A stretch of 64,000 bases of DNA, from the NCBI RefSeq assembly GCF_057098645.1, contig NZ_CM169472.1; one strand, written 5' to 3'. The notes beneath the pieces were generated by a model. That model had not been told where the DNA came from. It searched no databases and was given only the letters and a program-made list of their open reading frames with translations. Positions within the stretch are counted from its first letter, which is position 1, and each line of letters starts with the position of its first letter. Positions 1 to 29,289 of the stretch are shown here, in pieces. The position numbers were made by a program, and so were the translations under genes.

Positions 1-138
1 GATGTTAGTCGCAGCGCTGTTAACCCAAAAAGATAATAACCTGATACATCAACTGTCTGCGCTTTTTGAATTTCACTATCAGCAAGCCCCACAGCAATTA
101 GGGGTAATCTATCAATATTATTTTGAACAAGCAGGAGT

Positions 139-6100: not shown

Positions 6101-6462
6101 ATTACAACTCTCGCCAACACGACGCTCTCTATAACGCGTGGCTTAATGAGGAAGATCGTCAGCAGGTTGTGACCACTTTACTTGAAGAAGGATATCTGGG
6201 GCCTGCGTGGCCGGGAGCAATTAGCTGGTTAACGGGGGATAACCAGAGTACGGAGCATGGACGAGAACTGACAGTCACCTTCAGCGATGGCAGTCAGCAT
6301 TATGTCCTGCTCGACATGGGGCTTAGCTACTGGCGCTGTATTGAAGATACCTTCTTTGATTTTGCCCTGCGAGTACCGCAGCAAGTTGAACGGCTGGCAA
6401 ACACGCGAGCGCGAGCTGTTGCCCCGGGTAATGACCTTAGGAGTTATATTATCGCTGGATAA
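139..6462 (+). CDS. Giant SF2 DEAD/DEAH-box helicase fused to a DUF1998-like Zn-binding domain (DrmA-DrmB / DruE-like), 2107 aa
   Basis: 6324-nt ORF; AGGAG RBS at 129-133 five nt before ATG 139; upstream frame closed by stops. Walker A SGTGSGKTE, motif II VLDEAHSY, SAT motif, helicase-C QRAGRAGRRG. Downstream Cys clusters CRKCG...CSHC, CLSCG, CSCDKFCHHC typical of DUF1998. Confidence 0.85.
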   Translation: MSLMDVQQLHYAPLLNQLHQRAVRSVVSQLALRSKSLTHYLESQYFQPPGQEGSLLADPVFESTFGWMPADETMEDLRDKLISSPLVDALSKAPVPFRHQLTAWRTILEDKKSLLVSSGTGSGKTECFMVPVLEDLIRQQKSTRQSLTGTQAIFLYPLNALINSQQERLREWTRGFKGKIRFALYNGETRHTKYEIQEDQLKVPEQALSREAIYEAPPSIMVTNTTMLEYMLIRRKDAPIIEKSQGMLKYIVLDEAHSYIGSQAAELALLLRRVMQAFNVGPGTDKPVQIIATSATIGEDSPEGNKELAKFVADLAGVTERDVKVVRGYRQIPRVSESLIRHEYPTSLTSLKSLSPQDLYQQLCHYRVAQQLRQALTHPGRQAVRLSELLNVARRTWPDINHRELLQLLDLMARSREGELAFTPLRMHGFIRTLAGLWACSNKQCSHKAHELNQSDWPFGQVWFEQRQYCDCGAPVFEVLRCSGCGSAYLSAKEEMRGDGTNWLVAQPAAAEVDEFALDVDVYSEDEDNDELDNNSQFDRLIASDGEKYIISLEETTAGKIDSEAQKHYEINLLRPESRGEGRNNSFACVCCGDTQRKNNPLFRPLRLGAPFFLNEIIPTLLEFSPLPQTREEQLGPFNGRRLLTFTDSRQGTARISARLQQDADKATLRALCYQELANITEPSAKLSPAHCALLEKVISQFSVLPLKNSIDALKKAMAANEELSPTDIQALKIIEPMVSSLSTEHAEAMQILQANSGNQQKKTMSWQTLSEQLVGSVDLADRMRGSFKELSGLDLTKQQFADFCLYSEFGRRPKNAWTLESLGLVAIHYPFIDKVTTCPQDWKTLLPDPDKQLAEWRNLLKITLDFFIRENSAVFYENEQYPRWMGARFPVKMLQGPDKKNKGQKRDQLWPQIRDRHYNRVIKLLIAVFPAIQPEQAHWKSLVNHLMIEVWDAIRPCLRQFESGYQLDIKQQAEFYSPKQVWRCPYTRRALDVTLLGYSPYLPGSKEIAPEKAVLIEMPELPVRHWRLSGGGEIAREERLEWLESNALIQHAREEGLWSTRSDRLALKDSWYRLEEHSAQRTPEQNQFNEKQFKSGKVNVLNCSTTMEMGVDIGGMSLVAMNNVPPAPANYLQRAGRAGRRGESASAAITLCKNTAHGMEVFKDPLWAFNTTASAPRVRFGSSSIVQRHVNAQVLGLFLRAEVPDATKLSCKWFFEGDESQCLRFLHWLNHQADELADKLKRLTQGTVLMSLTATQLLTRTQAMMQQVDIRWRSQLAILLENIEALKADNSAWEETPAGKAIAYQLRDYRGAYLFSKLISEAFLPGHGFPVGVVNFNYLTADELEKRRAIKATQADPNEGGESFSRRIEKLPSRDLPTALREYAPGADVVLGGKVYRSSGIMLGKVLASGQELSGDHHIPWFWHCRKCGAGATSTTHPVECSHCKADIQQLDVKRYLQPVGFATDIRYQAHNDVSMPAQLPWKDPRVLVPSSVWVSLPDAGLGRYRFSHSGELFHFSEGEFGHGYAICLSCGRAESQTQPQRTPENLKNPERENTHYLLRGGSNDRQGSNKLCHGHVHKDLWLGYSSRTDMVELQLNDDNGLLIRDEVAARSLAVALREGLAHKLGIENTELGVTTQQARDINGYTGYSIFIYDNNAGGAGYAVQLIDHWADVFNYARKLLDCSCDKFCHHCLLSYDSQHYVNRLDRHHALTLLTNVRLQRLNLAPEYQYFGDGSRVETNPLSLRIAQCLNSEIYDSCSLVLAGPQEQWDFAQWPLFKELLQFASSGGNVELLVATPLENLTDSSRHQLSALAAMPGGRLQVKSIATAQLMQGKGRWLAQVTREGQSQQWAADDSATVAPGELWGQSASSPVVTLKGTSGKTFSGQTLSAEDLLPALPTGAVRINLCEQLDGPLEGFGSRFWSLVTQQHAGWKQAFTRHKEITHVEYSDRYLNSPFTARLLGEILTELVEQGMAERASLTVCVKKLDYNSRQHDALYNAWLNEEDRQQVVTTLLEEGYLGPAWPGAISWLTGDNQSTEHGRELTVTFSDGSQHYVLLDMGLSYWRCIEDTFFDFALRVPQQVERLANTRARAVAPGNDLRSYIIAG

Positions 6463-6469
6463 ATAATTG

Positions 6470-6617: not shown

Positions 6618-6685
6618 CGCAGTGTGCCGCGCCACATTTTTCAGGATGACGTTACCGCCACTGCCCCAAATAGACAGAAAAACCG

Positions 6686-9544: not shown

Positions 9545-9546
9545 TC

Positions 9547-12500
9547 ATGGCGCTGGTCGGTATTAATAACGAAAACGAATTTTACTCTAACCACTATTTG
9601 GGTGAGGTTTTCACCAGTGATATCCGCGATGTGCTGGAACCCTGGATAGCCAAGGAAAATGCAGCGCGTGAAGCGGAGCGTGCCGCTCGTGAACAGGGCA
9701 AAGACGTGGAGCCGGGATACCGCGCTCCGTGGAACCAGTTTAACAGTCTGGCGACTGAGTTTTTCCGCAAACTTGCCGAGCACGAAAAACAGCGTCAGAT
9801 CCCGCAGCGTCTGGCCGATCAACGTAATCGCTGGCAGCCATTGTTAAAGGCGCTGGGCTACGAAATTACGCCACAGATCCAAATGCTGGATGACGATACA
9901 CCGCTGCCGGTACTGGCGCGTTACAACAGCACTGACGGTAGCCCGTGGCTGTGGATTGTTGAAGCACACGATCAGGAAGAAGGAACGCTGGATCCGCTGG
10001 CGCTCTCCTTACTGACCGCGCAATTCCCGGCGGATACCGACAAACATAAGCGCGACAGCCTGCGCAAAAAAGCCAACGGTGAATATCGCAGCTGGCAGGA
10101 TCTGCTCTCTACGGCGGTCTTCACCCAAAATGAACCGCCGCGTTTTGTGCTGCTGCTCGGTAACCGTCAGCTCTTGTTGTTGGACCGTACTAAGTGGGCG
10201 CAAAACCGTCTGCTACGTTTTGATTTTGAAGAGATTTTAAGCCGTCGTGAAACGGATACGCTGAAAGCGACTGCGGTGTTGTTACATAAAGATTCTCTGC
10301 TGCCGGGCAGTGGGGCACCTTATCTTGACTCGCTGGATGACAATTCGCACAAACATGCGTTTGGTGTTTCGGAAGATCTGAAATATGCCCTGCGCGAAAG
10401 CATTGAGTTGCTGGGCAACGAAGCGATGCATTATCTGATCGACCGTGGCCTGGCAAACTATACCGGTAACCGTGCGGTGGACCCGGATGAACTGAGCCGC
10501 GAATGTCTGCGTTACATGTACCGCCTGCTGTTCCTGTTCTACATTGAAGCGCGCCCGGAGCTGGGTTATGCGCCAATGACTGCCAAAACTTATCTACAGG
10601 GCTACAGCCTGGAAACGTTGCGCGATCTGGAGATGATCCCGCTGACCAGCGAAGAAGATCGCAACGGGCGCTACTTCCACGACAGCCTGAATATGCTGTT
10701 TAAACTGGTGCGCGAAGGCTACAACGGCGGCGTGAAAATGCAGAGTGACCTGGAGAGCGGCGACCGGATCACCATCCATAGTCATCAGTTCAGCGTCCCG
10801 CGTCTGGAAAGTCATCTGTTTGATGCCAACAACACGCGCATTCTTAACCGCGTGGTATTCCGTAACGAAACCCTGCAACAGATTATCCAGGCGATGTCGT
10901 TAAGCCGCCCGGCCAAAGGGCGCTTTAACCGCCGCGGACGTATTTCTTATCGCCAGTTGGGTATCAACCAGTTGGGTGCGGTGTATGAGGCGCTGCTCTC
11001 CTATCGTGGATTCTTCGCCAGCGAAGACCTCTACGAGGTGAAGAAAGCCGGGGAAGAGTTTAACGAGCTGGAGACAGGTTACTTCGTCAGTAAGGATGAG
11101 ATTGGCAAATACCACGAAGACGAGAAGGTCTACGAGAAAGACGGCAGTCTGCGCATTCACCGCAAAGGCAGCTTTATCTACCGTATGGCCGGGCGCGACC
11201 GTGAGAAATCTGCCTCTTATTACACCCCGGAAGTGCTGACCCGCTCACTGGTTAAATATGCCCTGAAAGAACTGTTTAAGGAGCAGATTGATCCCATTAG
11301 CGATCCGCACGCCAAAGCTGATGCCATCTTAAACCTCACCGTGTGCGAACCGGCGATGGGCAGCGCGGCGTTCCTTAACGAAGCCATCAACCAGCTGGCG
11401 GAAGCGTATCTGTTCCACAAGCAGCAGGCGGAAGGTCGCCGTATTCCGCAGGATCGTTACACCCAGGAGTTACAGCGGGTGAAAATGTACATTGCCGACA
11501 ACAACGTTTTCGGCGTGGACTTAAACCCGGTGGCGGTGGAACTGGCGGAAGTGTCACTGTGGTTGAACGCCATCAGTGGCGATGCCTTTGTACCGTGGTT
11601 TGGTTACCAGCTGCACTGCGGTAACTCACTGGTGGGCGCGCGCCGTCAGGTGTTCAACAAGAGTGAACTGACCTACAAAAAAGCCAAAGATCCGAGCTGG
11701 CTTAACAGCGAGCCGGTCGAACTGGCGATGAACACGCCGCGTGAAGAGACGCAGATTTTCCACTTCCTGCTGCCCGACGGCGGTATGGCTAACTACAGCG
11801 ATAAAACTGTTAAGCAGCGTTATCCGGATGACTTCAAAGCCCTGGACAGCTGGCGCAAAGAGTTTATTAAAAGCTTTGCCGGGCATGAGATTGCTGATGT
11901 GCAGCGTATCAGCGAAAAGGTGGAAGCTCTGTGGAACACTTATCGCCAACAACTTAAAGCAGAACGTCTGAAAACCGCCGACAGCTACCCGGTGTGGCCG
12001 GCAGAAAACAGCGAGCAGACGCGTTCTTCGCTGAGCAGTAAAGATGAAACCTTTAGCGGTCGTCTTGAAGATAACAGCGCCTACCAGAAGCTGCGTTGGG
12101 TAATGGACTACTGGTGCGCGCTGTGGTTCTGGCCGATCGACAAAGCCGATGAGCTACCGGATCGCGGCACCTGGTTGTTTGAGATTGAAACCCTGCTCGA
12201 CGGGATTGTAATCACGGAAAAAGTCACTGAAGTTGCGGAGCACACCACCGGCGATCTGTTTGCCGAAGAAGGCCTGCTGCGAGAAGAGTCTTCGCTGTTT
12301 TCCGTTGCTGGTCGTCTGAAAACCGAGGTGTTGTTCCGTCATTTGCCGCGTCTGGCGATTGTCGATGCCCTGAGAAAGCAGCACCGTTTCTTCCACTGGG
12401 ATCTGGAGTTCTGCGACCTGTTTGCCGAGCGCGGCGGTTTTGACCTGATGCTCGGAAACCCGCCGTGGCTGAAAGTGGAATGGCAGGAAGCGGGCGTGCT

Positions 12501-14457
12501 GGGTGATTACGAGCCGGAATTTGTGCTGCGTAAGCTGAGCGCCTCGAAGCTGGCAACGTTGCGTGTTGATACCTTTAACCAGATCCCGGCACTGGAAGCG
12601 GCCTGGCGCAGCGAGTATGAAGGCTGTGAAGGGATGCAAAACTTCCTCAATGCGCAGCAGAACTACCCGGTACTAGCAGGACAAAAAGCGAATTTGTATA
12701 AATGTTTTCTACCTCTGGGGTGGCGCTTAGGGGCGCAGAAAGGTGTCGTAGGGTTCCTGCATCCGGAAGGAATTTATGAAGACCCGAAAGGGGGAAAACT
12801 GCGTGGGGCGGTCTATCCAAGGTTAAGAGCTCATTTTCAGTTTCAAAATCAGCATATGCTTTTCCCTATCGGTGACAGGGTTAAGTTTAGTATTAATATC
12901 TACACCGCGTTTGTAAGTGATCATATTGGCTTCATTAGTATTGCAAACTTATTCTCGGCAAAAACGATTGAACTGTGTTTGTCGCATGATGGAACTGGAG
13001 AAGTGGGTGGTATTAAAGATGACGAAACCGACTCATGGAACGAATCAGGACACCAAAGCCGCATATTGAAAGTATCGTTAGAGCGGCTTTCCTTGTTTGC
13101 TAATTTGTATGATGAGCTAGGTATACCTGCGATTGAGGCCAGATTACCTGCTCTTCATGCGGATCACTTGGTGTCTGTGCTTGAGAAATTTGCTAAGCAG
13201 CCAACTAGATTGAGTGACTTAGAAAAAGACTATTATTCAACCCAACATTGGAACGAAGTTAATGCTCAGGATGATGGGATAATCAGACGCGAAACCCAAT
13301 TCCCGGAAGACGCATCCCAATGGATTTTGTCTGGTCCGCACTTCTATGTTGGAACACCGCTTTATAAAACGCCGAGAGAAATTTGCACAGAGAAAGGACA
13401 TTATGACTGCCTGGACTTGCTAACTCTGCCCGACGACTATCTGCCGCGCACTAACTATATTCCAGCATGTGATGCACAGGAGTATGCAAAGCGCACCCCA
13501 CGGGTTTCGTGGAAAGAACAGGATGAAGACGAGCCGAGGAAGGTGACGGATTATTATCGTCATATAAATCGAAGAGCCATTGGTTGTTCTTCGGAGCGAA
13601 CTGCTATAGGTGCAATTATACCCAAAGATGTCGCTCATATAGATGGGGGATTCTCATTAACTTTCAAAGACCCTAAACAACTGGTGATTTTTAATACCAG
13701 CTTCAATTCCTTACCTTTTGACTTTGTAATTAAAACAACGGGTAAAAGCGATTGTCGGGCGGAATTAGTAAAAATTTTACCAATGCTTTCAGATATAGGG
13801 ACAAGGCTATTTGCTCGGGGCTTAGTTAATAATGCAATAACAGCGCATTACTCCGATCTCTGGCAATCCTGCTACACCCCAGACTTCAACACCCAGCGTT
13901 GGAGCCGCGATCTCCCGCTGCTGCCCCAGGATTTCTTCGCCAATCTGACCCCAGAGTGGCAGCGTAACTGCGCCTTACGCTCCGACTACAGCCGCCGTCA
14001 GGCGCTGGTGGAAATCGACGTACTGGTGGCGCAGGCGCTGGGGTTAACCCTCGAAGAGCTGCTTACCATTTACCGTGTACAGTTCCCGGTTATGCGCCAG
14101 TACGAAGCGGACACCTGGTACGATCAAAACGGTCGTATTATCTTTACCCCAAGCAAAGGGCTGGTGGGCGTTGGCTTGCCGCGTACCGCGCGTAAAGCTG
14201 ACCTGAAAAACGGCTTTGTCTTTAACGTCGACAGCCCGGACTGGACCGGCGGTGACTGCACCGATCAAGCCATCGGCTGGGATGATGTCAAACATCTTAA
14301 AACTGGTACCGTCAGCGTCACCTTTGATGACTATACCCGCAGCGACGAAGGCGAGCGCCGTACCGTCACCTGGCAGGCACCGTTTATCAAGCCGGATCGC
14401 GAAGACGACTACAAAGTGGCCTGGGCGTTCTTTGCACAAGATAAGGAGAGCGCCTGA
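9547..14457 (+). CDS. Large gamma-class N6-adenine DNA methyltransferase (PglX / DrmMI / type IIG-like), 1636 aa
   Basis: GGAGGG RBS at 9534-9539; start 2 nt after gene 2 stop. SAM motif I-like CEPAMGSAAFL, GVDLNPVAVELAEVSLWL, catalytic motif IV NPPW at 12457-12468. Confidence 0.85.
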   Translation: MALVGINNENEFYSNHYLGEVFTSDIRDVLEPWIAKENAAREAERAAREQGKDVEPGYRAPWNQFNSLATEFFRKLAEHEKQRQIPQRLADQRNRWQPLLKALGYEITPQIQMLDDDTPLPVLARYNSTDGSPWLWIVEAHDQEEGTLDPLALSLLTAQFPADTDKHKRDSLRKKANGEYRSWQDLLSTAVFTQNEPPRFVLLLGNRQLLLLDRTKWAQNRLLRFDFEEILSRRETDTLKATAVLLHKDSLLPGSGAPYLDSLDDNSHKHAFGVSEDLKYALRESIELLGNEAMHYLIDRGLANYTGNRAVDPDELSRECLRYMYRLLFLFYIEARPELGYAPMTAKTYLQGYSLETLRDLEMIPLTSEEDRNGRYFHDSLNMLFKLVREGYNGGVKMQSDLESGDRITIHSHQFSVPRLESHLFDANNTRILNRVVFRNETLQQIIQAMSLSRPAKGRFNRRGRISYRQLGINQLGAVYEALLSYRGFFASEDLYEVKKAGEEFNELETGYFVSKDEIGKYHEDEKVYEKDGSLRIHRKGSFIYRMAGRDREKSASYYTPEVLTRSLVKYALKELFKEQIDPISDPHAKADAILNLTVCEPAMGSAAFLNEAINQLAEAYLFHKQQAEGRRIPQDRYTQELQRVKMYIADNNVFGVDLNPVAVELAEVSLWLNAISGDAFVPWFGYQLHCGNSLVGARRQVFNKSELTYKKAKDPSWLNSEPVELAMNTPREETQIFHFLLPDGGMANYSDKTVKQRYPDDFKALDSWRKEFIKSFAGHEIADVQRISEKVEALWNTYRQQLKAERLKTADSYPVWPAENSEQTRSSLSSKDETFSGRLEDNSAYQKLRWVMDYWCALWFWPIDKADELPDRGTWLFEIETLLDGIVITEKVTEVAEHTTGDLFAEEGLLREESSLFSVAGRLKTEVLFRHLPRLAIVDALRKQHRFFHWDLEFCDLFAERGGFDLMLGNPPWLKVEWQEAGVLGDYEPEFVLRKLSASKLATLRVDTFNQIPALEAAWRSEYEGCEGMQNFLNAQQNYPVLAGQKANLYKCFLPLGWRLGAQKGVVGFLHPEGIYEDPKGGKLRGAVYPRLRAHFQFQNQHMLFPIGDRVKFSINIYTAFVSDHIGFISIANLFSAKTIELCLSHDGTGEVGGIKDDETDSWNESGHQSRILKVSLERLSLFANLYDELGIPAIEARLPALHADHLVSVLEKFAKQPTRLSDLEKDYYSTQHWNEVNAQDDGIIRRETQFPEDASQWILSGPHFYVGTPLYKTPREICTEKGHYDCLDLLTLPDDYLPRTNYIPACDAQEYAKRTPRVSWKEQDEDEPRKVTDYYRHINRRAIGCSSERTAIGAIIPKDVAHIDGGFSLTFKDPKQLVIFNTSFNSLPFDFVIKTTGKSDCRAELVKILPMLSDIGTRLFARGLVNNAITAHYSDLWQSCYTPDFNTQRWSRDLPLLPQDFFANLTPEWQRNCALRSDYSRRQALVEIDVLVAQALGLTLEELLTIYRVQFPVMRQYEADTWYDQNGRIIFTPSKGLVGVGLPRTARKADLKNGFVFNVDSPDWTGGDCTDQAIGWDDVKHLKTGTVSVTFDDYTRSDEGERRTVTWQAPFIKPDREDDYKVAWAFFAQDKESA

Positions 14458-17400
14458 TGCTGCCGTCCGTTGTCAGTCGGCAGGTCGCCGACAGCGTTGC
14501 CGCCTTTTTACGGGCGGCGTTCCCGCTAAACAGCCCGCTGTTTAACGGTGAGAATAACGATAATGTCTCAATGCTGGAGCAATTTCTGGCCCAGCCCGAA
14601 ACGCTGCTGAAAGGACCATACCTTTCCGCCCAGTTGCCGTTTCGTAAAAGTGACTTACCACTGAATTTCTTCCCTAATCTGACGCTGCCGTTCCCGCCGC
14701 ACGCGCATCAGGCCCGGGCATTTCAGCGTCTGGGAAGCGACGCGCCACAGCCGACACTGGTCGCTACCGGTACCGGCTCCGGTAAAACAGAATGCTTTAT
14801 GTTCCCGCTGCTCAACCACTGCGCGGGCGCGTCACATGCCGGGGTTAAAGCGATTATCATCTACCCGATGAACGCCCTGGCAACCGATCAGGCCAGCCGT
14901 TTCGCCAAAACCATCGCCAGCGATCCACAACTGCATGGCAAGGTGACCGTCGGCTTGTTTGTCGGCGACAGCGAAATCGAACCCAGCAAGAAAATGTCGG
15001 CAGAAAAGGTCATTACCTGCAAGCACACGCTGCGCGAAAGCCCGCCGGACATCCTGTTGACCAACTACAAAATGCTCGACTACCTGCTGATGCGCCCTGG
15101 CGATCAGCCGCTCTGGCGTTACAACCAGCCCGGTTCATTGCGTTACCTGGTCGTGGATGAATTGCATACGTTTGATGGCGCGCAAGGGTCGGATCTGGCC
15201 TGTCTGGTGCGACGTCTGAAGCATCACATAGGTGTGGATAACCAACGATTCGCCTGCGTCGGGACATCAGCTACCGTCGGCGACGAACTGGGGCAACTGC
15301 TCGATTACGCAAAAACAATCTTTGACCAGCCGTTTACCGATGACGCCGTTATTCGCGAAGATCGCTACACGGCAGCGGAGTACTTGCAGGATTATGCCAT
15401 TGCGTACAGTCAGTATCCGGGGCCGGAGGCCGCTTCGGCCCTGGACCCGCAGAGTTACTCTACCCCGGTAGCGTATCTCAACGGGCAAATCCCTTTGTGG
15501 TTCCCCGACAGCGATTTGCAACTCCCGGACGATCTGGAGAGCGACGACGGGCGTGAAAAGCGTATTGCGCTGGGGTCACTGTTACGCCGCCACAGCGTGA
15601 TGCATGTCTTACTCCATGATCTGCAAGGCGGGATCCTCTCTGAGCGAGAGTGTCTGGAAAATCTCCAGGTCATGCTGGCAGAAAGCGCCGACCATGCCCG
15701 ACGCGTGCTGCAAAGCATTCTGGCGCTGATCGCGCAGGCACGTCTCGAAGTACCGGAAACGGAACACGATCGTCAAAAACGTCTCCAGGCGAAGAAAGCG
15801 CGTCCGGTGCTGCCGTTTGTGCAACTGCGCTCCCAGTTGTGGCTTCGTGAGATGCGTCGTCTGGTCGCCAGCGTGGCGAAAACGCCGCGACTGGTGTTTG
15901 CCGATGATGTGGCGGTGGAAGACCGCGAACACTATTTGCCGGTTATCCACTGCCGTGACTGCCATGCAACCGGCTGGGCCAGCCTGCGTCATGGGCAAAG
16001 CGTTCAGCTGGAAACAGACCTCGACGGCATTTATCGCCAGTTCTTTGAAAAAGGGCGCTCCATCGTCCTCGCTTTCCCGGATAATAACGAAAAAGCGGTC
16101 AGTGGCGCACACCAGAAACTGTGTCCTACCTGTCTGAAACTTAACCGACAGTCCAGCGTCCAGTGTGGACATTGCGGTCATACGGAACTGTTGCAGGTAC
16201 TGATCCCGGATATGCTCAAAGAGCGTAAGGACGAGCTGGAGTTTGCTAATGAATGCCCGTACTGCAACAGCAAACAGGGGATTTCGATCCTGGGGTCACG
16301 GGCTGCCAGTCTGTCGGCGGTGATGATTCACCAGCTTTATGGCAGCCAGTTCAACGAACATAAAAAGCTGATTACGTTTTCTGACTCGGTACAAGACGCC
16401 GCGCATCGTGCCAGCTTCTTTACTGCCCGAACCTGGCCGCTGATGATTCGTGGGCAAATCGCCAGTGTTCTTGGCGAAAAAGAGACATTACCGCTGGATG
16501 CGTTCGCGGCGCGTGTTTGCCAACAAACGCGTGAACGTTCACCGGACGATGCTCATTTTGCAGCGAACTTCATCGCACCAAATATGCAGTGGCTGAATGA
16601 TTATCAGACGCTGAAAAATGAAGGCAAACTGGCGGAGAACTCCGATCTGCCGGAGCTGGTTTCCCTGCGCCTCGACTGGGAGGTGTACAGCGAATTTACC
16701 CTGCGCGCGCGTATCGGACGTACGCTGGAAGCCACCGGTTATGCCGTTGCCGGAGTGGATAAAGATCGCTTTAATCCGGCAATTACCGCCCTGCATCAAC
16801 AGCTTTGTGAAGAGCTGGGTGATGAGATGTCCGGTGTGAGCGTCGAGCAGGTAGCGCACCTGGCGCTGGGGGTTATCTGGTATCAACGCCAGGCCGGGGC
16901 CGTTATGCATCCGGCGTTCGAAAGTTATCGCCGTGATGGCACGACCTTTATGATGACGCAAAAAGAGCGTACATCGCGCTATATGCCTTCTATCGGTCCG
17001 AAAACGCGTAAACCGGCTTATGCGTCGTTTGAAAAAATTAATGGTTTCCATCGCCTGATTGGCGCGAAGTCTAACCCCAGTTGGTATCAGCATTGGATCA
17101 ATCGCACGCTGAGTAACGGCAATAATCTGTTTATCAGTAGCGTTGCGGAAACAGTGTTACGACGCCTGTTTACGGCGTTGAAAATAGCCGGAGTAGTAAA
17201 AGATTTTGACACCAAAGGGCGTGAAGCCTGGGGACTGGTGCCTTCGGCGCTGGTGGTGAGCCGTGACGTCGTTCAGCTTAATTGCTCATGTTGCCGTGAG
17301 GTTGTCCGGGCTCCGGCCGATCAAGGCTGGCAGTGGCGTAATGCGCCTTGTCTCTCTTTACGTTGTGAAGGTCGTTACCTAGAAGTCGACAATATGGCGA

Positions 17401-20400
17401 CCTGGCGTTGGGAGAACATGGACATCGCGCGCGTGCAGGGCGCAGAACACACGGGGCTGCTTAGCCGTGAAGATCGCGAAGCCACCGAAAAATCGTTCTA
17501 CCGCGGCAACCAACCGTGGAATATCAACCTGTTGTCGGCAACACCGACGCTGGAGATGGGTATTGACGTTGGGGATCTTTCCACCGTTTTACTCTGTTCT
17601 GTCCCACCTGCTCAGGCCAACTACTTGCAACGTATTGGTCGCGCCGGTCGTAAAGATGGTAACGCGTTAAACATTACCGTGGCAGAAGGGAACCCGCACG
17701 ATCAGTTTTTCTTTGAAGAACCACTGGAGATGATGCAGGGCCAGGTGCAGGCTCCTGGCGTCTTCCTCAATGCAACGGCTATTCTCGAACGCCAGCTGGC
17801 AGCTTTTTGTATGGATAACTGGGTGAAAACCGGTGTACCAGAATCCGCTATCTGTAAAAACGTCAAACAGATGCTGGATGAGCTGGAGTTCGGGCGTAAA
17901 TCGGGTTTTCCGTATAACTTACTGCGATATATCGAACAGCATCATGCGGAGATTGCTGCGCAATTTACGGCAATCTTCCCCGATCTTGCCGCAGAAACTC
18001 GCCAACAGCTGTTGTCTTATCTTCAGGGCGCGCCAGGACAACGCTCGCTGGTGCAGCGTATCGAAGAAGCGTTAAAACTGCTGGTGGAAGATCGCAAATC
18101 TTTGCGCTCACGCATCGATAAACTCAAGCGCAGTATCGATAAACTGGAGAACGCGCCGCGCGATCAAAACTTTGATAGCGATATGCGCGAGTTAACTTCG
18201 GAACGGCAGGCGCTGATGGCGCTGGTCAATCAAATCAACAATAAGCAAACGCTGAATTTCCTCACGGATGAAGGTCTGCTGCCTAACTACGCCTTCCCGG
18301 AAGCCGGTATTACGTTACGTTCTGTGCTCTGGCGGCGTAAAGAAGGCGGGGAAGCACGTGAATATCAAAACACCACTTTCGAATATGAACGCCCGGCATC
18401 AACGGCGCTGGCTGAGCTGGCTCCGCTGAATAATTTCTATGCCGGTGGGCATAAAGTTGAAATTGAGCAGATAGACCTGAAGGTCTCTGAGCCGGAGAAC
18501 TGGCGTATCTGTAGCCACTGTAACTACAGCGAAAATATCGACCAGACGGGCGACCAGCATAAATATTGCCCGAAATGTGGCACACCGGGGTGGGCCGATG
18601 CCGGACAAAAAACCACGCTGCTGAAACTTCGCCAGGTTTATGCCCGCGCCAGCGCACGTGATAGCCAGATCAGCGACGAGAGCGACAGCCGTGAACCTGC
18701 TTTCTTCCAGCGTCAGCTATTGGTTAGTTTCGAAAAAGAAGATGTATCGGCGGCATACGCGATTGAGGAAGGCGAAGTTCCGTTTGGTTTTGAATTTTTA
18801 AGCAAAGTCACCCTGCGGGATATCAACTTCGGCAAAATGGCGGATGATGCCAATGAGTTGATGATTGCCGGAGAAGCGAAGAAGCGAACCGGGTTTAAAG
18901 TTTGCCTCGGGTGCGGCATGGTGCAGCGTCCTCGCGATCATGAACCACGTCATGATTTGAGCTGCAAATATCGCACGGAACCGGAAAAGGCGAAGTTCGA
19001 AGATTATCTCTACCTCTATCGCCAGCTGGAGTCAGAAGCGTTGCGTATTCTGCTCCCGGTAAGCAGTTACAGTAATGACCGTGTCGTGGAGGCTTCTCTT
19101 GGGGCGGCGATCCAGCTCGGTCTTAAACATTACTTCAAGGGGAATGTCGATCACCTGAAAGGCGTTGTGTACCGCGAGCCGGAAAATGAAGGCGAATCCT
19201 GGCGGCAGTATCTGGTGATTTACGATACCGTCCCGGGGGGGACTGGTTCTCTTAAAGAACTGATGCGCACTCCCGACAATTTGCTGAAATTACTTGAACT
19301 GGCCTATCAGGCAATAGTGGAATGCAGTTGCAACAATGATACGCATAAAGATGGTTGTTATCGTTGCGTTTACGCTTACCGTGACCGTGGGCGCATGAAG
19401 TATGTCTCCCGCGATCAGGCGCGTCTCTTGCTGGCGAAAATTTTGCAGGCAAGAGATTCGATACGGGTAATTGATTCCATCAAAAACATTTCCCTCGAAG
19501 CCATGATGGGCAGTGAGCTGGAAAAACGGTTTATTAGCTGCCTGCAAGAAAATAAAAACCTGATTGTCAGTCGCAGTTACGCGCATCAGGGCGCTGGGTG
19601 GATTATTAACACCCGCAGCGAACCGATGATGAGCTGGCATCTTAAAGCTCAGGTGGATTTAGGCGCTAAAGAGGCGGTGGGGATCCCTTGTCGCCCGGAT
19701 TACGTGCTATATCCGCTTATGCAGTCTGATGCCATTAAACCGGTGGTTATTTTCCTTGATGGCTTTGCGTTCCACAAAAATAGCGTCGCAGAGGATGTGC
19801 AAAAACGCCAGGCGATTCGGGATAGCGGTAATTTCTGGGTGTGGACAGTCACGTGGGCCGATCTCAAAGAGCCTGGGCTTAAACATGTTCAGGATGTCCT
19901 GGGACTTGGGCATAACCCGGATATGAAACAGCCTAAGTTTTATAACCTGTTTCATGATACCAACTTTGCGGCCCTTGAAGCGTCGTTCCGGGAACGCAAC
20001 AGTTTTGCACTGCTGCTGGATTATCTCGCCGATCCGGGCGGAAGAACGCAGTTATGGCAGAGAATGGCTGCTGCACATGCCTGGGTGTGGTTGGATGTGA
20101 AGAAGTCACAGGACGCGGGAACGAAACAAAAGTATGCCTATGAAATGCAGGAAAACGCGCCAGCCTGGCGGCTAGCAGAGCTTTTGCCAGACGAACCGTT
20201 TGTCTTTGGTGGTTTACTCGATAGCTGTAACTCATCGCAGCAATTTATTGAGCTGGCTTCGGTGTTGCCACAACAAGCCATTAAACCGACGACCAGCGTC
20301 GCACAAATGCGCAGCTGGCTGCGTTTGCATATCTGTTTTGACGATCGCTATACGCAGGATGACGGTTATGAAGCGGGACTCAATGGCTTCTGGCGACTGG

Positions 20401-20798
20401 TAAACCTGTTACAGTTCCTGCCGGATATGACCTTTACCAGCCGTAAAGCCGTGCATTTACCGCAGGAAAGCGTTGACACTAAAGTTTCGGCAACGCCAGA
20501 GGCAGTACCAGAGACTGATGAGAGTTGGGCTGAGATTATTGAGTTTGGCTTATTAAGCGCTGAAGAGATCGCGTTGCTTCAGTCTCATTCTCTCTCTGCG
20601 CCGACTCTCGGCTACGAATTGCAAAATGATGAAGGTGAAATTATTGCGGAAGCCGATCTCGCCTGGCCATCACAAAAATGGGCATTGATTATTGATAATC
20701 AAGAATTTATTCCATTATTCACAACCAGGGGTTGGCACGTTGCATTCGGGCCAATTGACGAAAATACATTGCAACATCTGTCCGGAGGTGACAAATGA
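14457..20798 (+). CDS. Second giant SF2 DEAH helicase-DUF1998-like fusion, paralogous to gene 1, with a C-terminal DUF559/Vsr-like PD-(D/E)xK nuclease-like motif, 2113 aa
   Basis: Start overlaps gene 3 stop (TGATG); AAGGAGAG RBS. Walker A TGTGSGKTE, motif II VVDELHTF, TSAT, QRIGRAGRKDG. Cys clusters CSHC...CPKCG, CLGCG, CSCNND...CYRC. C-terminal RPDYVLYP...VVIFLDGFAFH...KRQAIRDSGNFWVWTVTW. Confidence 0.85.
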   Translation: MLPSVVSRQVADSVAAFLRAAFPLNSPLFNGENNDNVSMLEQFLAQPETLLKGPYLSAQLPFRKSDLPLNFFPNLTLPFPPHAHQARAFQRLGSDAPQPTLVATGTGSGKTECFMFPLLNHCAGASHAGVKAIIIYPMNALATDQASRFAKTIASDPQLHGKVTVGLFVGDSEIEPSKKMSAEKVITCKHTLRESPPDILLTNYKMLDYLLMRPGDQPLWRYNQPGSLRYLVVDELHTFDGAQGSDLACLVRRLKHHIGVDNQRFACVGTSATVGDELGQLLDYAKTIFDQPFTDDAVIREDRYTAAEYLQDYAIAYSQYPGPEAASALDPQSYSTPVAYLNGQIPLWFPDSDLQLPDDLESDDGREKRIALGSLLRRHSVMHVLLHDLQGGILSERECLENLQVMLAESADHARRVLQSILALIAQARLEVPETEHDRQKRLQAKKARPVLPFVQLRSQLWLREMRRLVASVAKTPRLVFADDVAVEDREHYLPVIHCRDCHATGWASLRHGQSVQLETDLDGIYRQFFEKGRSIVLAFPDNNEKAVSGAHQKLCPTCLKLNRQSSVQCGHCGHTELLQVLIPDMLKERKDELEFANECPYCNSKQGISILGSRAASLSAVMIHQLYGSQFNEHKKLITFSDSVQDAAHRASFFTARTWPLMIRGQIASVLGEKETLPLDAFAARVCQQTRERSPDDAHFAANFIAPNMQWLNDYQTLKNEGKLAENSDLPELVSLRLDWEVYSEFTLRARIGRTLEATGYAVAGVDKDRFNPAITALHQQLCEELGDEMSGVSVEQVAHLALGVIWYQRQAGAVMHPAFESYRRDGTTFMMTQKERTSRYMPSIGPKTRKPAYASFEKINGFHRLIGAKSNPSWYQHWINRTLSNGNNLFISSVAETVLRRLFTALKIAGVVKDFDTKGREAWGLVPSALVVSRDVVQLNCSCCREVVRAPADQGWQWRNAPCLSLRCEGRYLEVDNMATWRWENMDIARVQGAEHTGLLSREDREATEKSFYRGNQPWNINLLSATPTLEMGIDVGDLSTVLLCSVPPAQANYLQRIGRAGRKDGNALNITVAEGNPHDQFFFEEPLEMMQGQVQAPGVFLNATAILERQLAAFCMDNWVKTGVPESAICKNVKQMLDELEFGRKSGFPYNLLRYIEQHHAEIAAQFTAIFPDLAAETRQQLLSYLQGAPGQRSLVQRIEEALKLLVEDRKSLRSRIDKLKRSIDKLENAPRDQNFDSDMRELTSERQALMALVNQINNKQTLNFLTDEGLLPNYAFPEAGITLRSVLWRRKEGGEAREYQNTTFEYERPASTALAELAPLNNFYAGGHKVEIEQIDLKVSEPENWRICSHCNYSENIDQTGDQHKYCPKCGTPGWADAGQKTTLLKLRQVYARASARDSQISDESDSREPAFFQRQLLVSFEKEDVSAAYAIEEGEVPFGFEFLSKVTLRDINFGKMADDANELMIAGEAKKRTGFKVCLGCGMVQRPRDHEPRHDLSCKYRTEPEKAKFEDYLYLYRQLESEALRILLPVSSYSNDRVVEASLGAAIQLGLKHYFKGNVDHLKGVVYREPENEGESWRQYLVIYDTVPGGTGSLKELMRTPDNLLKLLELAYQAIVECSCNNDTHKDGCYRCVYAYRDRGRMKYVSRDQARLLLAKILQARDSIRVIDSIKNISLEAMMGSELEKRFISCLQENKNLIVSRSYAHQGAGWIINTRSEPMMSWHLKAQVDLGAKEAVGIPCRPDYVLYPLMQSDAIKPVVIFLDGFAFHKNSVAEDVQKRQAIRDSGNFWVWTVTWADLKEPGLKHVQDVLGLGHNPDMKQPKFYNLFHDTNFAALEASFRERNSFALLLDYLADPGGRTQLWQRMAAAHAWVWLDVKKSQDAGTKQKYAYEMQENAPAWRLAELLPDEPFVFGGLLDSCNSSQQFIELASVLPQQAIKPTTSVAQMRSWLRLHICFDDRYTQDDGYEAGLNGFWRLVNLLQFLPDMTFTSRKAVHLPQESVDTKVSATPEAVPETDESWAEIIEFGLLSAEEIALLQSHSLSAPTLGYELQNDEGEIIAEADLAWPSQKWALIIDNQEFIPLFTTRGWHVAFGPIDENTLQHLSGGDK

Positions 20799-22909
20799 CG
20801 GTGCAAACGCCCAAGGTGGCACTTTCTGATGGTTTTCTGGGCGCATTCGCGCGGATCCCAAAGGCACAGCAAAAAAAGGTGCAGGAATTCATCTCCAAAT
20901 TCCGTCAGGACCCGACCAGTAATGGACTTAACTATGAAAAGATCCACGATGCGCGCAGTAAAAATGTCCATTCGGTGCGAATCGATCAAACTTATCGCGG
21001 CATTGTTCTGAAACCTGAACAGGGTGCCCTGTATATGCTGATGTGGGTGGATAAACACGACGAAGCATACGACTGGGCGCGGCGGCATGATTGTTCGATT
21101 CACCCGGTTACCGGCGCGATTCAGGTCATTGATATTAGCTATATCAAACCGGCACCGGAAGCGGTGGTTGATAAACCGAAACTCTTCGCGGCTTACAGCG
21201 CGGAACAGATTCTGGCCCTGGGCGTGCCGCCTGTCTTTATTGATCAGGTGATGGCGCTTACCGATGAAGCCGGGCTTAATCAACTTGAAAGCATAATGCC
21301 AGCAGAAGCCTGGGAACCTCTGCACTGGCTGGCAGAAGGGCTGGATTACCAGGAAGTGCTGGAAGAGTTTAACGATCATCATGATGAGCCTGTTGATACC
21401 AACGACTTTATGGAGGCGATTGAACGAAGTAAACGTCGCTTCCATGTCGTTGAAAATGAACAGGAGCTGTTGCAGATGCTTAATGCGCCTTTAGAAAAAT
21501 GGCGTGTATTTCTGCATCCGAGCCAGCGAAAACTGGTGGAGTCGCCCGCTAATGGTCCGGTACGAGTACTGGGCGGTGCAGGTACAGGGAAAACGGTTGT
21601 TGCGATGCACCGTGCGCGGTGGTTATCTCAGCGTCTGGCAGATAAACCCGGTAAGAAGGTACTTTTCACGACCTTTACGCGTAACCTGGCGGCAGATATT
21701 CGCGCTAATCTCCAGCGGTTGTGTACGCGAGAAGAGATGGCGCGTATTGACGTCGTTAACATTGATGCCTGGATGAGCGACCAACTAAAACGCCACGGTT
21801 ATGATTTCCGCGTGGTATACGACAGCGATGAAGGGCGACGCAAATGCTGGAACTATGCCTTGCAGCAGGCACCTGCCGAACTGGGGCTACCTGACAATTT
21901 CTATGCTGAAGAGTGGCAACGCGTTGTCCAGCCAAATGCGGTTTACACCCGGGAGGAATACCTCAAAGTCAGCCGGGTTGGACGTGGTACAGCGTTATCC
22001 CGTATTCAACGGGCGAAAATCTGGCCAGTCTTTGAAGAATTCAGAGCACAAATGGCGCGTGCCAAACTGCGCGAAATGGGCGATGCCATGCATGAGGCTA
22101 TTGTTCTGTTTAAAGAAAAACAGGTTCAACTACCTTATAGCAGTATTGTGGTCGATGAAGCTCAAGATATCGGTGCCCCGGCATTTACTCTTATTCGCAG
22201 CCTGGTTCCCGAGTCGCCCAACGATCTGTTTATTGTCGGGGATGGGCATCAGCGTATTTATCGCAATAAGGTCGTTCTTGGTCAGTGTGGTATTAACGTC
22301 CGTGGTCGTCGCAGTAAAAAATTGAAGATTAACTATCGGACCACAGAAGAGACGCGTCAATTTGCTGTTGGGCTGTTAACTGGTGTGAAGGTTGATAACC
22401 TCGATGGCGAAGCGGATACCAGTAATGATTATTTGTCATTACTGCACGGGGAAAAGCCCATGATTACGCATGCGGCAGATTTCAAAGAAGAGGCTGCAAC
22501 GCTCGTCAAGCAAATTCAGGCATTGCTGGCGAATCAGGTTCGTTCTCAGGATATCTGCATTACTGCGCGTACTAAACATGCTTGTGACCGCTACGCATCA
22601 GCACTGAATGACGCCGGAATTGAGACATTTAATTTAGGCAATGATAGCGGTGACAGCGATGCACGCCCTGGCGTGCGGGTTGCAACGATGCACCGTATTA
22701 AAGGGCTTGAGTTCCAGTATGTGTTCCTGGTGGGGATTAACGAAGGCGTTGTGCCGGAAATAAAAGCATTAGCATCCGATGATCCCGTTGAACAGCGTGA
22801 TGCATTATTTAATGAGCGCGCGTTACTGCATGTGGCTGCAACCCGTGCCGTAAAAGGGCTGTTTGTTTCATCATCTGGTGTCCCTAGTCCGCTATTAGTG
22901 GCTGACTGA
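20795..22909 (+). CDS. SF1 UvrD/PcrA-like helicase with N-terminal ~230-aa domain of unknown function, 704 aa
   Basis: ATGA start/stop overlap with gene 4; GGAGGTGA RBS. Walker A GGAGTGKT, motif II VVDEAQDIG, VGDGHQRIY, NYRTT, HRIKGLEFQYVFLVG, AATRAVKGL. Confidence 0.85.
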   Translation: MTVQTPKVALSDGFLGAFARIPKAQQKKVQEFISKFRQDPTSNGLNYEKIHDARSKNVHSVRIDQTYRGIVLKPEQGALYMLMWVDKHDEAYDWARRHDCSIHPVTGAIQVIDISYIKPAPEAVVDKPKLFAAYSAEQILALGVPPVFIDQVMALTDEAGLNQLESIMPAEAWEPLHWLAEGLDYQEVLEEFNDHHDEPVDTNDFMEAIERSKRRFHVVENEQELLQMLNAPLEKWRVFLHPSQRKLVESPANGPVRVLGGAGTGKTVVAMHRARWLSQRLADKPGKKVLFTTFTRNLAADIRANLQRLCTREEMARIDVVNIDAWMSDQLKRHGYDFRVVYDSDEGRRKCWNYALQQAPAELGLPDNFYAEEWQRVVQPNAVYTREEYLKVSRVGRGTALSRIQRAKIWPVFEEFRAQMARAKLREMGDAMHEAIVLFKEKQVQLPYSSIVVDEAQDIGAPAFTLIRSLVPESPNDLFIVGDGHQRIYRNKVVLGQCGINVRGRRSKKLKINYRTTEETRQFAVGLLTGVKVDNLDGEADTSNDYLSLLHGEKPMITHAADFKEEAATLVKQIQALLANQVRSQDICITARTKHACDRYASALNDAGIETFNLGNDSGDSDARPGVRVATMHRIKGLEFQYVFLVGINEGVVPEIKALASDDPVEQRDALFNERALLHVAATRAVKGLFVSSSGVPSPLLVAD

Positions 22910-23673
22910 TAATATGTCCAAAACAGACCAGGAGCCGAAACGCTCCTGGTCTATATAACCGTTCTGGCAACTGGCGATATTTATATTGCTTAGCTCCCAA
23001 CAGCCAGACAATATCAACTTAGAAATTATATTCGCTTATGCGGTTTGCATATTGCACAGTACAACCTGTTTTCTCTATATCTAACGTAACGTCAGGATGT
23101 GGATGATTTTTGGATGGGGTGACACACTGGACAAATATAGCTGGCACGAAAAGGCTGGCATTTCCAGCTGACCAATAGTCTCTGGAACCATGATGATGAT
23201 AAAATAAATATCTTAAGTTTTAAACGTATGATGCCAGGATTACCAGAATTATAAACGAATATATTAGTTCTTTTCTATTTGTTCAGGAGGGGTATAAAAA
23301 TTGCAATTGTTAATAGTATCGTCAGGACGATAAAAAGATAATCATGACAAAGGAAATTGAACTAAAATGATTGACATTTTACAGGTGGTTTGTCAGTGAT
23401 TTCTTGTTATTCATAATTTATTTTCCGTAAAAAATAGTAAGGTGATCACCTGAATAAAGGTAATCTCATATTTTGATGAGTATAGTGATTTTTTATTTCT
23501 CTGGTGAGGAATGAAGGAAATATCAATGGTAAGGAACGTCAGAGAATCAGGGAAAATTAAGGTCCCTCAGAAACACAATGCCGTTCACTTAAGCGGGGCG
23601 GCACTGTGTTTCACAGGATAACGGGTTTTTGATATCTTAACCGCCCTCGCCCTTGATGGTCGGGGGCGTTTTG

Positions 23674-24349: not shown

Positions 24350-24402
24350 GCCGGAGGAGTTAAAAGCGCTGATGGATGCGAATAAATCAAATTAATGAAC
24401 GC

Positions 24403-28093: not shown

Positions 28094-29289
<1,196 letters not shown>

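What the first reader, a model, noticed from the sequence alone, without database searches (positions are those of the whole stretch)
14457..20798. Twin paralogous giant helicases with different C-terminal modules; gene 4 carries a DUF559/Vsr-like PD-(D/E)xK nuclease-like motif
Genes 1 and 4 share collinear helicase motifs (TGSGKTECFM, YP.NAL, TN..ML.Y.L.R, Y.V.DE.H, TSAT, QR.GRAGR) and Cys-rich DUF1998-like regions, so they are paralogues, but their last ~500 residues are unrelated. Gene 4 contains RPDYVLYP...VVIFLDGFAFH...KRQAIRDSGNFWVWTVTW (encoded near 19690-19860), which fits the PD...(E/D)xDG...R...G...V.R pattern of DUF559/Vsr-type restriction-endonuclease-fold domains. That would supply the nuclease this locus otherwise lacks. 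Gene 1 has no such motif and may be a sensor or regulator paralogue.
Basis: inference. Interest (0 to 1): 0.7.

Follow-up and report, generated by a model that had tools for sequence, protein, structure and literature searches.

The report
ArmC helicase with Vsr-like nuclease
The gene is ArmC, the giant helicase of the already described ARMADA type II anti-phage system of E. coli, and its Vsr-like nuclease domain is real but had already been predicted in a 2025 preprint, so the finding is correct in its core and not new.

Summary
Window 14457-20798 is one 2113-aa ORF, and the quoted motifs lie at aa 1746-1800 (nt 19692-19856). It is collinear with gene 1 (139-6462) through the helicase core and the MZB/DUF1998 module, and unrelated in the last 390-450 residues.

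[quoted passage not shown] Gene 4 is ArmC of ARMADA II (armABCD, 6686-22909). Gene 1 is DruE of the neighbouring Druantia III, essentially identical to PDB 9tu7; its partner DruH ends at window 148.

- D1748, D1768, G1769 and H1773 are invariant in 134 diverse homologues.

Bell et al. (bioRxiv, September 2025) already annotated an "active Vsr domain" in a near-identical ArmC. Catalysis has still not been tested.

The two helicases belong to two separate systems. DruE has tandem PLD-like domains. The locus also holds ZorE (HNH) and a RelE-like domain in ArmD.

In passing: ArmC's extreme C-terminal domain is homologous to the unassigned C-terminal extension of Druantia-associated ZorE.

The parts
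2..148 (+). 3' end of druH (STY4851/ECs_5259 family; Druantia III partner of DruE), cut by the window edge
   Evidence: Open frame ending in a stop at 146-148. RefSeq annotation of identical O145 genomes puts an STY4851/ECs_5259 family CDS directly upstream of, and overlapping, the DruE start.
139..6462 (+). Gene 1 = DruE, the Druantia type III-A YprA-family helicase with C-terminal tandem PLD-like domains
   Evidence: PADLOC DruE3 PDLC00037, 2182.5 bits, aa 9-2105. PDB 9tu7_Y, 4898.6 bits over aa 3-2107. Pfam MZB at aa 1615-1694. PLDi/PLDa domains from PMC13192584.
6469..6497 (+). 12-bp G+C-rich hairpin just after the druE stop, inside the 223-nt druE-armA gap (a likely boundary between transcription units)
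   Evidence: RNA fold dG -21.2 kcal/mol, z -2.5. Sequence. A promoter-like site at 6567-6594. The consensus scans are only suggestive.
6686..9544 (+). Gene 2 = ArmA, a SNF2/RapA/BrxHII-like helicase
   Evidence: PADLOC DrmD 1.4e-99 and BrxHII 9.4e-60. NCBIfam DrmD 349.9 bits (below the 610 cut-off) and RapA 1.3e-38.
9547..14457 (+). Gene 3 = ArmB, a PglX/type IIG-like N6-adenine DNA methyltransferase; intact in this window
   Evidence: PADLOC REase_MTase_IIG 4.8e-280 and DrmMI 6e-57. Pfam Eco57I / MmeI_Mtase / N6_Mtase, weak hits. Disrupted by IS3 in sister strain RM13514.
14457..20798 (+). Gene 4 = ArmC, the ARMADA II YprA-family helicase-nuclease (the finding)
   Evidence: PADLOC DruE-family profiles 6e-104 to 1e-60, DrmA only 6e-14. 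100% identical to O145:H28 genomes; present in 525 of 5426 complete E. coli genomes. Walker A K110 and DExH D234 carry the same numbers as the residues mutated in PMC12458937.
14691..15326 (+). ArmC RecA1 lobe (motifs I TGSGKTECFM, Ia YPMNAL, Ib TNYKMLDYLLMR, II VVDELH, III TSAT)
   Evidence: BLASTP against DruE, aa 81-277, 34% identity, E 3e-30. PADLOC best stretch aa 79-281.
17418..17786 (+). ArmC RecA2 lobe, including motif VI QRIGRAGR (aa 1058-1065)
   Evidence: BLASTP against DruE from aa 997. PDB and NCBIfam helicase hits at aa ~990-1110.
19101..19370 (+). ArmC MZB (MrfA Zn-binding, formerly DUF1998) domain, aa 1549-1638
   Evidence: Pfam PF09369, E 6.4e-13. CxxC pairs at aa 1352, 1371, 1483 and 1634.
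19491..19892 (+). ArmC Vsr/DUF559-like PD-(D/E)xK-fold nuclease domain, aa 1679-1812. Candidate catalytic residues: E1689, D1748 (nt 19698-19700), D1768 (19758-19760), H1773 (19773-19775), plus D1780, R1784 and D1802
19914..20501 (+). ArmC middle C-terminal domain, aa ~1820-2015, alpha/beta, fold unassigned
20517..20756 (+). ArmC extreme C-terminal domain, aa ~2021-2100: a small alpha-beta3-alpha-beta module homologous to the ZorE C-terminal extension (degenerate Vsr-like)
   Evidence: PADLOC ZorE2 profile positions 282-357/375, E 5.8e-9. BLASTP to the island's ZorE, 40% identity over 57 aa, E 3e-8. hhalign to Vsr weak, E 0.0039, with A and P at the Vsr H64 and H69 positions. Conservation.
20795..22909 (+). 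[quoted passage not shown]
   Evidence: PADLOC GajB 2.6e-36. NCBIfam PcrA/Rep/UvrD partial hits. PHROG RelE-like toxin at aa 8-92, E 0.035, weak. Bell et al. report HHpred RelE3 0.0085.

Best explanation
Gene 4 is ArmC, the YprA-family (MrfA/DruE-like) SF2 helicase of the ARMADA type II anti-phage system (armA-armB-armC-armD, window 6686-22909). [quoted passage not shown]

After its helicase core and MZB zinc module, ArmC has three C-terminal domains. The first (aa ~1679-1812) is a Vsr/DUF559-like member of the PD-(D/E)xK restriction-endonuclease superfamily. Its metal-binding and catalytic constellation is fully conserved: E1689 on helix 1, D1748 of 'PD', D1768-G1769 of 'DG', H1773, and D1780/R1784.

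Most likely mechanism:
- ArmB N6-methylates host DNA.
- ArmA (SNF2) and the ArmC helicase load on and translocate along or unwind unmodified phage DNA.
- The Vsr-like domain of ArmC nicks or cleaves that DNA.
- The result is direct, non-abortive clearance. ArmD is a partly dispensable accessory.

Shown (literature): ARMADA II protects; all four genes are needed; the ATPase motifs of ArmA and ArmC and the NPPW motif of ArmB are needed; infected cells survive. Shown here: identity of the locus, the fold, alignment of the motif to Vsr, and invariance of the candidate catalytic residues. Inferred: that the domain is catalytically active, that it is the effector, that methylation marks self, and the order of events.

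The confidence given (0.78) is a blend: about 0.95 for the identity of the locus and for the Vsr-like fold with a conserved active-site signature, and about 0.6 for the domain being the catalytically active effector of the system.
For: Identity of the system: gene order and family hits. Window 1-24000 is 100% identical to O145 genomes and flanked by zorABE and druH. The DNA of the nuclease domain is 99.5% identical to EDL933, where armC deletion and complementation were done (10.1101/2025.09.22.677730). Walker A K110 and DExH D234 have the same numbering as in the mutated NCTC 12900 ArmC.

Independent agreement: Bell et al. [quoted passage not shown]

DNA targeting is consistent with the resistance of hypermodified Tevenvirinae. 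The ArmC-ArmD pairing and the ArmB neighbour recur in distant homologues.
Against: No experiment in the literature read mutates or assays the ArmC nuclease domain; only helicase and methyltransferase motifs were mutated.

Vsr H64 is replaced by Asp, and the Vsr zinc site (C66/H71/C73/C117) is absent, so the chemistry may differ from Vsr.

Related DruE proteins of Druantia I and II are reported to carry inactivated Vsr domains. The PLD domains of DruE were dispensable in one study. A C-terminal nuclease-like domain in this helicase family is therefore not automatically the effector.

A self/non-self role for ArmB methylation has not been demonstrated.
Confidence: 0.78

Rival explanations
1. The Vsr-like domain of ArmC is not a nuclease. 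It would be a DNA-binding, lesion- or modification-sensing, or protein-docking module, and phage DNA would be destroyed by something else (host RecBCD, the DruE PLD domain, the ZorE HNH domain, or the ArmD RelE-like domain).
For: Vsr H64 is replaced by Asp and the Vsr zinc site is missing (sequence). No Pfam Vsr or DUF559 hit. Relatives in Druantia I and II are described as having inactivated Vsr domains. The DruE PLD domains were dispensable for defence in one study. The nuclease has never been tested.
Against: Absolute invariance of D1748, D1768, G1769 and H1773, and near-invariance of D1780, R1784, D1802 and E1689, across 134 sequences at ~25-40% identity. That is the pattern of a maintained active site, not of a decayed one. 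By contrast, the C-terminal domain of the same protein has lost the equivalent His positions. ARMADA II protects when cloned alone in BL21-AI without Druantia or Zorya.
Confidence: 0.17
2. One reading: genes 1-5 form one system in which gene 1 is a nuclease-less sensor or regulator paralogue and gene 4 supplies the only nuclease.
For: The genes are co-directional and adjacent. Druantia III and ARMADA II synergise against many phages. One study found no DruE nuclease activity, and PLD-less DruE(1-1723) still protected in EDL933, a strain that retains ARMADA II and Zorya II.
Against: Gene 1 is DruE, with its obligate partner DruH upstream. A 223-nt gap with a strong hairpin separates druE from armA, whereas the arm genes abut or overlap. 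Each system works when cloned alone. DruE has tandem PLD-like domains, and another study reports DNA cleavage and loss of defence with R1258A in the PLD pocket. 17 E. coli genomes carry ARMADA II without the other two systems.
Confidence: 0.04
3. The PD...DG..H...R...W pattern is a chance resemblance inside an otherwise unrelated domain.
For: Short motif. No Pfam hit.
Confidence: 0.01

Closest known systems
ArmC of ARMADA type II (Bell et al., bioRxiv 2025, PMC12458937; EDL933 OI-172 study, 10.1101/2025.09.22.677730)
   Different: Nothing of substance. This window is the O145:H28 allele with an intact armB. Here the invariance of the catalytic residues is quantified, and the last domain is linked to ZorE.
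DruE of Druantia type III-A (gene 1; PDB 9tu7-9tuc)
   Same: YprA-family helicase of ~2100 aa. Collinear RecA1, inserted domains, RecA2, OB/zinc modules and MZB. 23-34% identity to ArmC.
   Different: The C-terminal effector module is tandem PLD-like domains instead of Vsr-like + unassigned + ZorE-CTD-like. It partners with DruH rather than with a SNF2 helicase, a methyltransferase and a UvrD helicase.
E. coli Vsr endonuclease (PDB 1cw0/1vsr; Pfam PF03852) and DUF559 (PF04480; PDB 3hrl), and the I-Bth0305I catalytic domain (3r3p)
   Different: No Pfam-level sequence membership. Vsr H64 is replaced by invariant Asp. No Vsr zinc site and no N-terminal DNA-intercalating segment. Fused to a giant helicase rather than standing alone. 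Not a T:G mismatch repair enzyme.
DISARM class 1 (DrmD, DrmMI, DrmA, DrmB, DrmC)
   Same: A SNF2 helicase, an N6-adenine methyltransferase and a DUF1998-containing helicase in one operon.
   Different: The helicase and DUF1998 are fused in one protein that is closer to DruE than to DrmA. No PLD protein (DrmC). A Vsr-like nuclease is fused instead. There is an extra UvrD/GajB-like ArmD. DrmD scores below the NCBIfam cut-off.

Membership tests
ARMADA type II | YprA-like DEAD/DEAH helicase with an MZB/DUF1998 module, closer to DruE than to DrmA | tested here: met
   Pfam MZB 6.4e-13. PADLOC DruE profiles 6e-104 against DrmA 6e-14. PDB YprA 6znp 5e-20.
ARMADA type II | Strict gene order: BrxHII/RapA-like helicase, PglX-like methyltransferase, YprA helicase, GajB-like helicase | tested here: met
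   ORFs 6686-9544, 9547-14457, 14457-20798 and 20795-22909, all on the + strand, abutting or overlapping. Family hits.
ARMADA type II | GajB-like helicase carries an N-terminal RelE-like domain | tested here: inconclusive
   Only a weak PHROG RelE-like hit (E 0.035, aa 8-92). No NCBIfam hit. Bell et al. report HHpred 0.0085.
ARMADA type II | C-terminal Vsr-type nuclease domain on the YprA helicase | tested here: met
ARMADA type II | Near-identity to an experimentally validated ARMADA II locus | tested here: met
   99.5% DNA identity to EDL933 over the nuclease domain. O145:H28 is listed among the carriers in 10.1101/2025.09.22.677730.
ARMADA type II | Anti-phage activity of this particular allele | not testable with these tools
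   Shown for the NCTC 12900, ATCC 8739 and EDL933 alleles only.
Vsr endonuclease family (Pfam PF03852) | Sequence match to the family HMM | tested here: not met
   hmmscan finds no Pfam family on aa 1660-2113 even at E<=10, for the query or for 53 homologues. Only profile-level similarity: hhalign E 1.1e-4, probability 57%.
Vsr endonuclease family (Pfam PF03852) | Restriction-endonuclease-like alpha/beta core | tested here: met
Vsr endonuclease family (Pfam PF03852) | Catalytic Asp51 and His69 (roles recalled from the Vsr literature, own knowledge) | tested here: met
   They align to D1748 and H1773, both 134/134.
Vsr endonuclease family (Pfam PF03852) | His64 of the 'THG' motif | tested here: not met
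   It aligns to D1768 (invariant Asp).
Vsr endonuclease family (Pfam PF03852) | Structural zinc site (Cys66, His71, Cys73, Cys117; own knowledge) and T:G mismatch specificity | tested here: not met
   ArmC has DGFAFHKNSV where Vsr has HGCFWHHHHC: no Cys/His cluster. Mismatch specificity cannot be tested here.
DUF559 (Pfam PF04480) | Sequence match to the family HMM, and the 'E-x-D-G..H' motif | tested here: not met
Druantia type III (for gene 1) | DruE3-type helicase adjacent to DruH | tested here: met
   PADLOC DruE3 2182 bits. PDB 9tu7 4898 bits. An STY4851/ECs_5259 family gene ends at window 148.
DISARM class 1 (considered for genes 2-4) | Separate DrmA and DrmB genes, a PLD protein DrmC, and DrmD at equivalog score | tested here: not met
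   The helicase and DUF1998 are fused in one ORF. No PLD hit in genes 2-5. NCBIfam DISARM_DrmD 349.9 bits against a cut-off of 610.

The most novel reading that the evidence does not exclude
The three co-resident systems may share modules and divide labour. ArmC's extreme C-terminal domain (aa ~2021-2100) is homologous to the unassigned 'nuclease-like' C-terminal extension that marks Druantia-III-associated ZorE. It could be a common adaptor, for a shared partner or for a shared DNA intermediate. Through it, DruE would act mainly as an ssDNA-engaging helicase that hands substrates to the ArmC Vsr-like nuclease or the ZorE HNH nuclease. DruE's PLD domains were dispensable in the native EDL933 background, which fits this.
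Probability: 0.15. Interest if true: 0.6.

Novelty: already known. Interest (0 to 1): 0.17.

Why it matters
It matters little as a discovery. The locus is the published ARMADA II / Druantia III island, and the Vsr-type nuclease domain of ArmC was already annotated in 2025.

It does have practical value:
- It confirms that reading the sequence alone can recover a real, conserved active-site signature.
- It gives exact residues (D1748, D1768, H1773, plus E1689, D1780 and R1784) for the nuclease-dead mutants that nobody has yet reported.
- It shows which of the three C-terminal ArmC domains has kept a catalytic constellation.

The side observation that ArmC and Druantia-associated ZorE share a C-terminal module gives a concrete handle on the unexplained synergy among the three systems of this island, which accounts for most phage resistance of EHEC strains.

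Tried and rejected
1. Pfam hmmscan of ArmC aa 1101-2113, and of 53 aligned C-terminal homologues, found only MZB. There was no Vsr, DUF559 or other nuclease family, so family membership by HMM is rejected.
2. PDB sequence searches with the ArmC tail, as a single sequence and as a profile, gave nothing relevant.
3. The search for homologous proteins with the tail gave only 3 hits because of its word prefilter. It was replaced by the exhaustive representative search, which gave 927 hits.
5. Internal duplication (domain 1 against the last domain) has no sequence support: hhalign E 0.11. The last domain against Vsr is only weakly similar (E 0.0039) and lacks both His positions.
7. PHROGs has nothing for either helicase tail.
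8. A nuclease domain at the N-terminus of ArmB (as in type IIG enzymes) was looked for. Pfam shows only methyltransferase hits in aa 1-1000.
9. DISARM membership was considered and rejected (see the membership test).
Full report
WHAT IS THERE. The window starts with five co-directional large ORFs: 139-6462 (2107 aa), 6686-9544 (952 aa), 9547-14457 (1636 aa), 14457-20798 (2113 aa) and 20795-22909 (704 aa). The finding's coordinates are exactly the fourth ORF. RPDYVLYP is at aa 1746-1753 (nt 19692-19715), VVIFLDGFAFH at aa 1763-1773 (nt 19743-19775), and KRQAIRDSGNFWVWTVTW at aa 1783-1800 (nt 19803-19856).

BLASTP of gene 1 against gene 4 gives 34% identity over 211 aa of the RecA1 lobe (E 3e-30). 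It gives 23% over 722 aa from RecA2 through the Cys-rich region (E 7e-26). The alignment ends at aa 1718 of gene 1 and aa 1662 of gene 4. Both proteins hit Pfam MZB, the former DUF1998. The unrelated tails are 389 and 451 residues.

WHERE IT COMES FROM. Window 1-24000 is 100% identical to several E. coli O145/O145:H28 chromosomes, for example RM9872. Gene 4 is found in 525 of 5426 complete E. coli genomes, and 15 of the copies are on plasmids. In the annotated sister genome RM13514, the genes upstream of gene 1 are an STY4851/ECs_5259-family protein and, divergently, zorA2-zorB2-zorE. The last 48 codons of the STY4851-family gene are at window 2-148. Downstream lie a transposase pseudogene, a truncated nanS, nanM, nanC and the fim operon.

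IDENTITY OF THE GENES. PADLOC assigns gene 1 to DruE3 over its full length (2182 bits). Gene 2 matches DrmD/BrxHII-like SNF2 helicases, and gene 3 matches type IIG/DrmMI-like methyltransferases. Gene 4 matches DruE-family profiles (6e-104) far better than DrmA (6e-14). Gene 5 matches GajB-like UvrD helicases; NCBIfam agrees. Gene 1 is essentially identical to PDB 9tu7 chain Y (4898.6 bits, aa 3-2107).

The literature names this arrangement. [quoted passage not shown] The DNA of the ArmC nuclease domain is 99.5% identical to that of EDL933. ArmC K110 and D234, the residues mutated by Bell et al., carry the same numbers here.

Two transcription units are likely. A 223-nt gap with a 12-bp hairpin (dG -21.2 kcal/mol) follows the druE stop. 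The arm genes, by contrast, are 2 nt apart or overlap by 1 and 4 nt. The consensus promoter and terminator scans are only suggestive.

THE NUCLEASE-LIKE DOMAIN. Sequence methods alone do not place it. Pfam finds nothing on aa 1660-2113, for the query or for 53 homologues. PDB sequence and profile searches also find nothing.

An exhaustive HMMER search of 1.84 billion representatives with aa 1660-2113 found 927 relatives with E<=1e-3. In an alignment of the 133 that cover the whole tail, plus the query, several columns are invariant or nearly so:
- D1748, D1768, G1769, H1773, S1686 and E1689 are 134/134.
- D1780, R1784 and D1802 are 133/134.
- Q1732 is 132/134.

These sequences share about 25-40% identity with the query.

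I verified the E. coli Vsr sequence against PDB 1cw0_A and compared profiles. hhalign aligns ArmC RPDYVLYP...KPVVIFLDGFAFHK with Vsr RPDFVVDEYRCVIFTHGCFWHH. With the full-tail profile this gives E 6.5e-4; with the domain-only profile it gives E 1.1e-4 and probability 57%. The alignment puts D1748 on Vsr D51, D1768 on H64, and H1773 on H69.

AlphaFold2 models are confident: aa 1660-2113 has pLDDT 90.2 and pTM 0.79, and aa 1679-1816 alone has pLDDT 86.9 and pTM 0.82. Foldseek with the three-domain model was uninformative.

- SfsA, TnsA and BstEII

The domain is Vsr/DUF559-like but is not a Pfam-level member of either family. Vsr H64 is an invariant Asp here. The Vsr Cys/His zinc cluster is absent. 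The Glu of the DUF559 'ExDG' motif is F/Y here.

Their mutants cover only helicase and methyltransferase motifs. The EDL933 study used deletions and complementation. Catalysis by this domain has therefore not been tested in anything I could read.

Genes 1 and 4 are not a sensor/effector pair of one system. DruE works with DruH, and ARMADA II protects when cloned alone. The two systems do synergise.

DruE is not devoid of a nuclease module, since it has two PLD-like domains. Their role is disputed. PMC13192584 reports DNA cleavage, and loss of defence with R1258A. In contrast, 10.64898/2026.05.13.724758 found no nuclease activity, and DruE(1-1723) was still protective in EDL933.

The locus is not otherwise nuclease-free. 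ZorE has an HNH domain, and ArmD has a weak RelE-like N-terminus.

THE OTHER TWO ArmC TAIL DOMAINS. The middle domain (aa ~1820-2015) is confidently modelled, but I could not assign it. The 'EEP?' label was not reproduced.

The last domain (aa ~2021-2100) matches the PADLOC ZorE2 profile at positions 282-357 of 375 (E 5.8e-9). It also matches the island's own ZorE at aa 278-334, with 40% identity over 57 aa (E 3e-8). [quoted passage not shown] It is present in 53 of 59 Druantia-associated ZorE lineages and is not assignable to any family. None of the papers read connects it to ArmC.

In ArmC homologues this domain conserves E2054 (128/134 acidic), E/D2067 (128/134), K/R2074 (113/134), W2070 and W2093. 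It aligns only weakly to Vsr (E 0.0039), with Ala and Pro at the two His positions.

MECHANISM. The best-supported reading has four steps:
- ArmB methylates host DNA.
- ArmA and the ArmC helicase engage unmodified phage DNA.
- The ArmC Vsr-like domain cuts it.
- Immunity is direct and non-abortive.

Shown in the literature: the requirement for all four genes and for the ATPase and NPPW motifs, survival of infected cells, and resistance of hypermodified T-even phages. Shown here: the fold, the motif alignment and the invariance. Inferred: catalysis, self-marking by methylation, and the order of events.

The main rival is a non-catalytic DNA-binding or docking role. It is disfavoured by the strict invariance of the putative metal ligands, in contrast with the degenerate last domain of the same protein.

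VERDICT. The thing is already known, so interest is low. The only modestly new items are the quantified catalytic-residue conservation and the ArmC-ZorE shared C-terminal module.

Noticed in passing
window 20517-20756 (ArmC aa ~2021-2100); L002 2979-4082 (zorE): ArmC's extreme C-terminal domain is homologous to the C-terminal 'nuclease-like' extension of ZorE (PADLOC ZorE2 profile E 5.8e-9; BLASTP 40% identity over 57 aa, E 3e-8). A 2026 preprint says this extension marks Druantia-associated ZorE and could not be assigned to a family. No paper read links it to ArmC. The acidic positions E2054 and E/D2067 are ~95% conserved in ArmC homologues.
   Followed up: partly
window 6463-6685: A 223-nt gap lies between druE and armA. 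It has a 12-bp G+C-rich hairpin (6469-6497, dG -21.2 kcal/mol) right after the druE stop and a promoter-like site at 6567-6594. The arm genes are 2 nt apart or overlap by 1 and 4 nt, which suggests two transcription units and translational coupling within armABCD.
   Followed up: partly
L001 13781-20001 (RM13514); hits H1-H3: In sister O145 strains an IS3-family element interrupts armB (RM13514), or lies inside the armC match (RM8988-C1, RM12275-C1, RM8995-C1). In this window both genes are intact. These strains are natural ARMADA knock-outs.
   Followed up: no
window ~23585-25383; L002 2507-2755: The defence island appears to be inserted in the nanCMS locus. A nanM fragment lies beside zorE on the left. 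A transposase pseudogene and a truncated sialate O-acetylesterase (nanS) lie right of armD, before intact nanM and nanC.
   Followed up: no
window 28162-29142: An IS5-family transposase ORF (NCBIfam 5.8e-110) sits between nanC and fimB. About 1.2 kb here is absent at this place in strain RM9872, which is otherwise identical over window 1-24000.
   Followed up: partly
L005 1-18890; L004 1-26462: A distant ArmC homologue in a metagenome contig (P0012) is followed by ArmD but has no adjacent ArmA or ArmB; Zorya-II-like genes (OmpA-like, DUF8245/ZorE-like) lie ~7 kb upstream. Another homologue (P0004) has a 1662-aa SACS/NOV_C protein inserted between ArmB and ArmC, and sits on a P4-like satellite (integrase, AlpA, primase).
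   Followed up: no
window 139-6462 (DruE), literature: Two May 2026 preprints disagree on the DruE PLD domains. One reports DNA cleavage and loss of defence with R1258A. The other reports no nuclease activity and full protection by DruE(1-1723), tested in EDL933, which still carries ARMADA II and Zorya II.
   Followed up: partly
window 19914-20501 (ArmC aa ~1820-2015): This is a confidently modelled alpha/beta domain with conserved N1983, Q1986 and F1987 but no convincing structural match. The published tentative 'inactive EEP' label was not reproduced.
   Followed up: partly
window 14001-16000: G+C content peaks at 0.576 with slightly negative GC skew over the end of armB and the start of armC, against 0.47-0.54 in the neighbouring genes. 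This may be a recombination mosaic; armB is reported to be the variable gene of the island.
   Followed up: no
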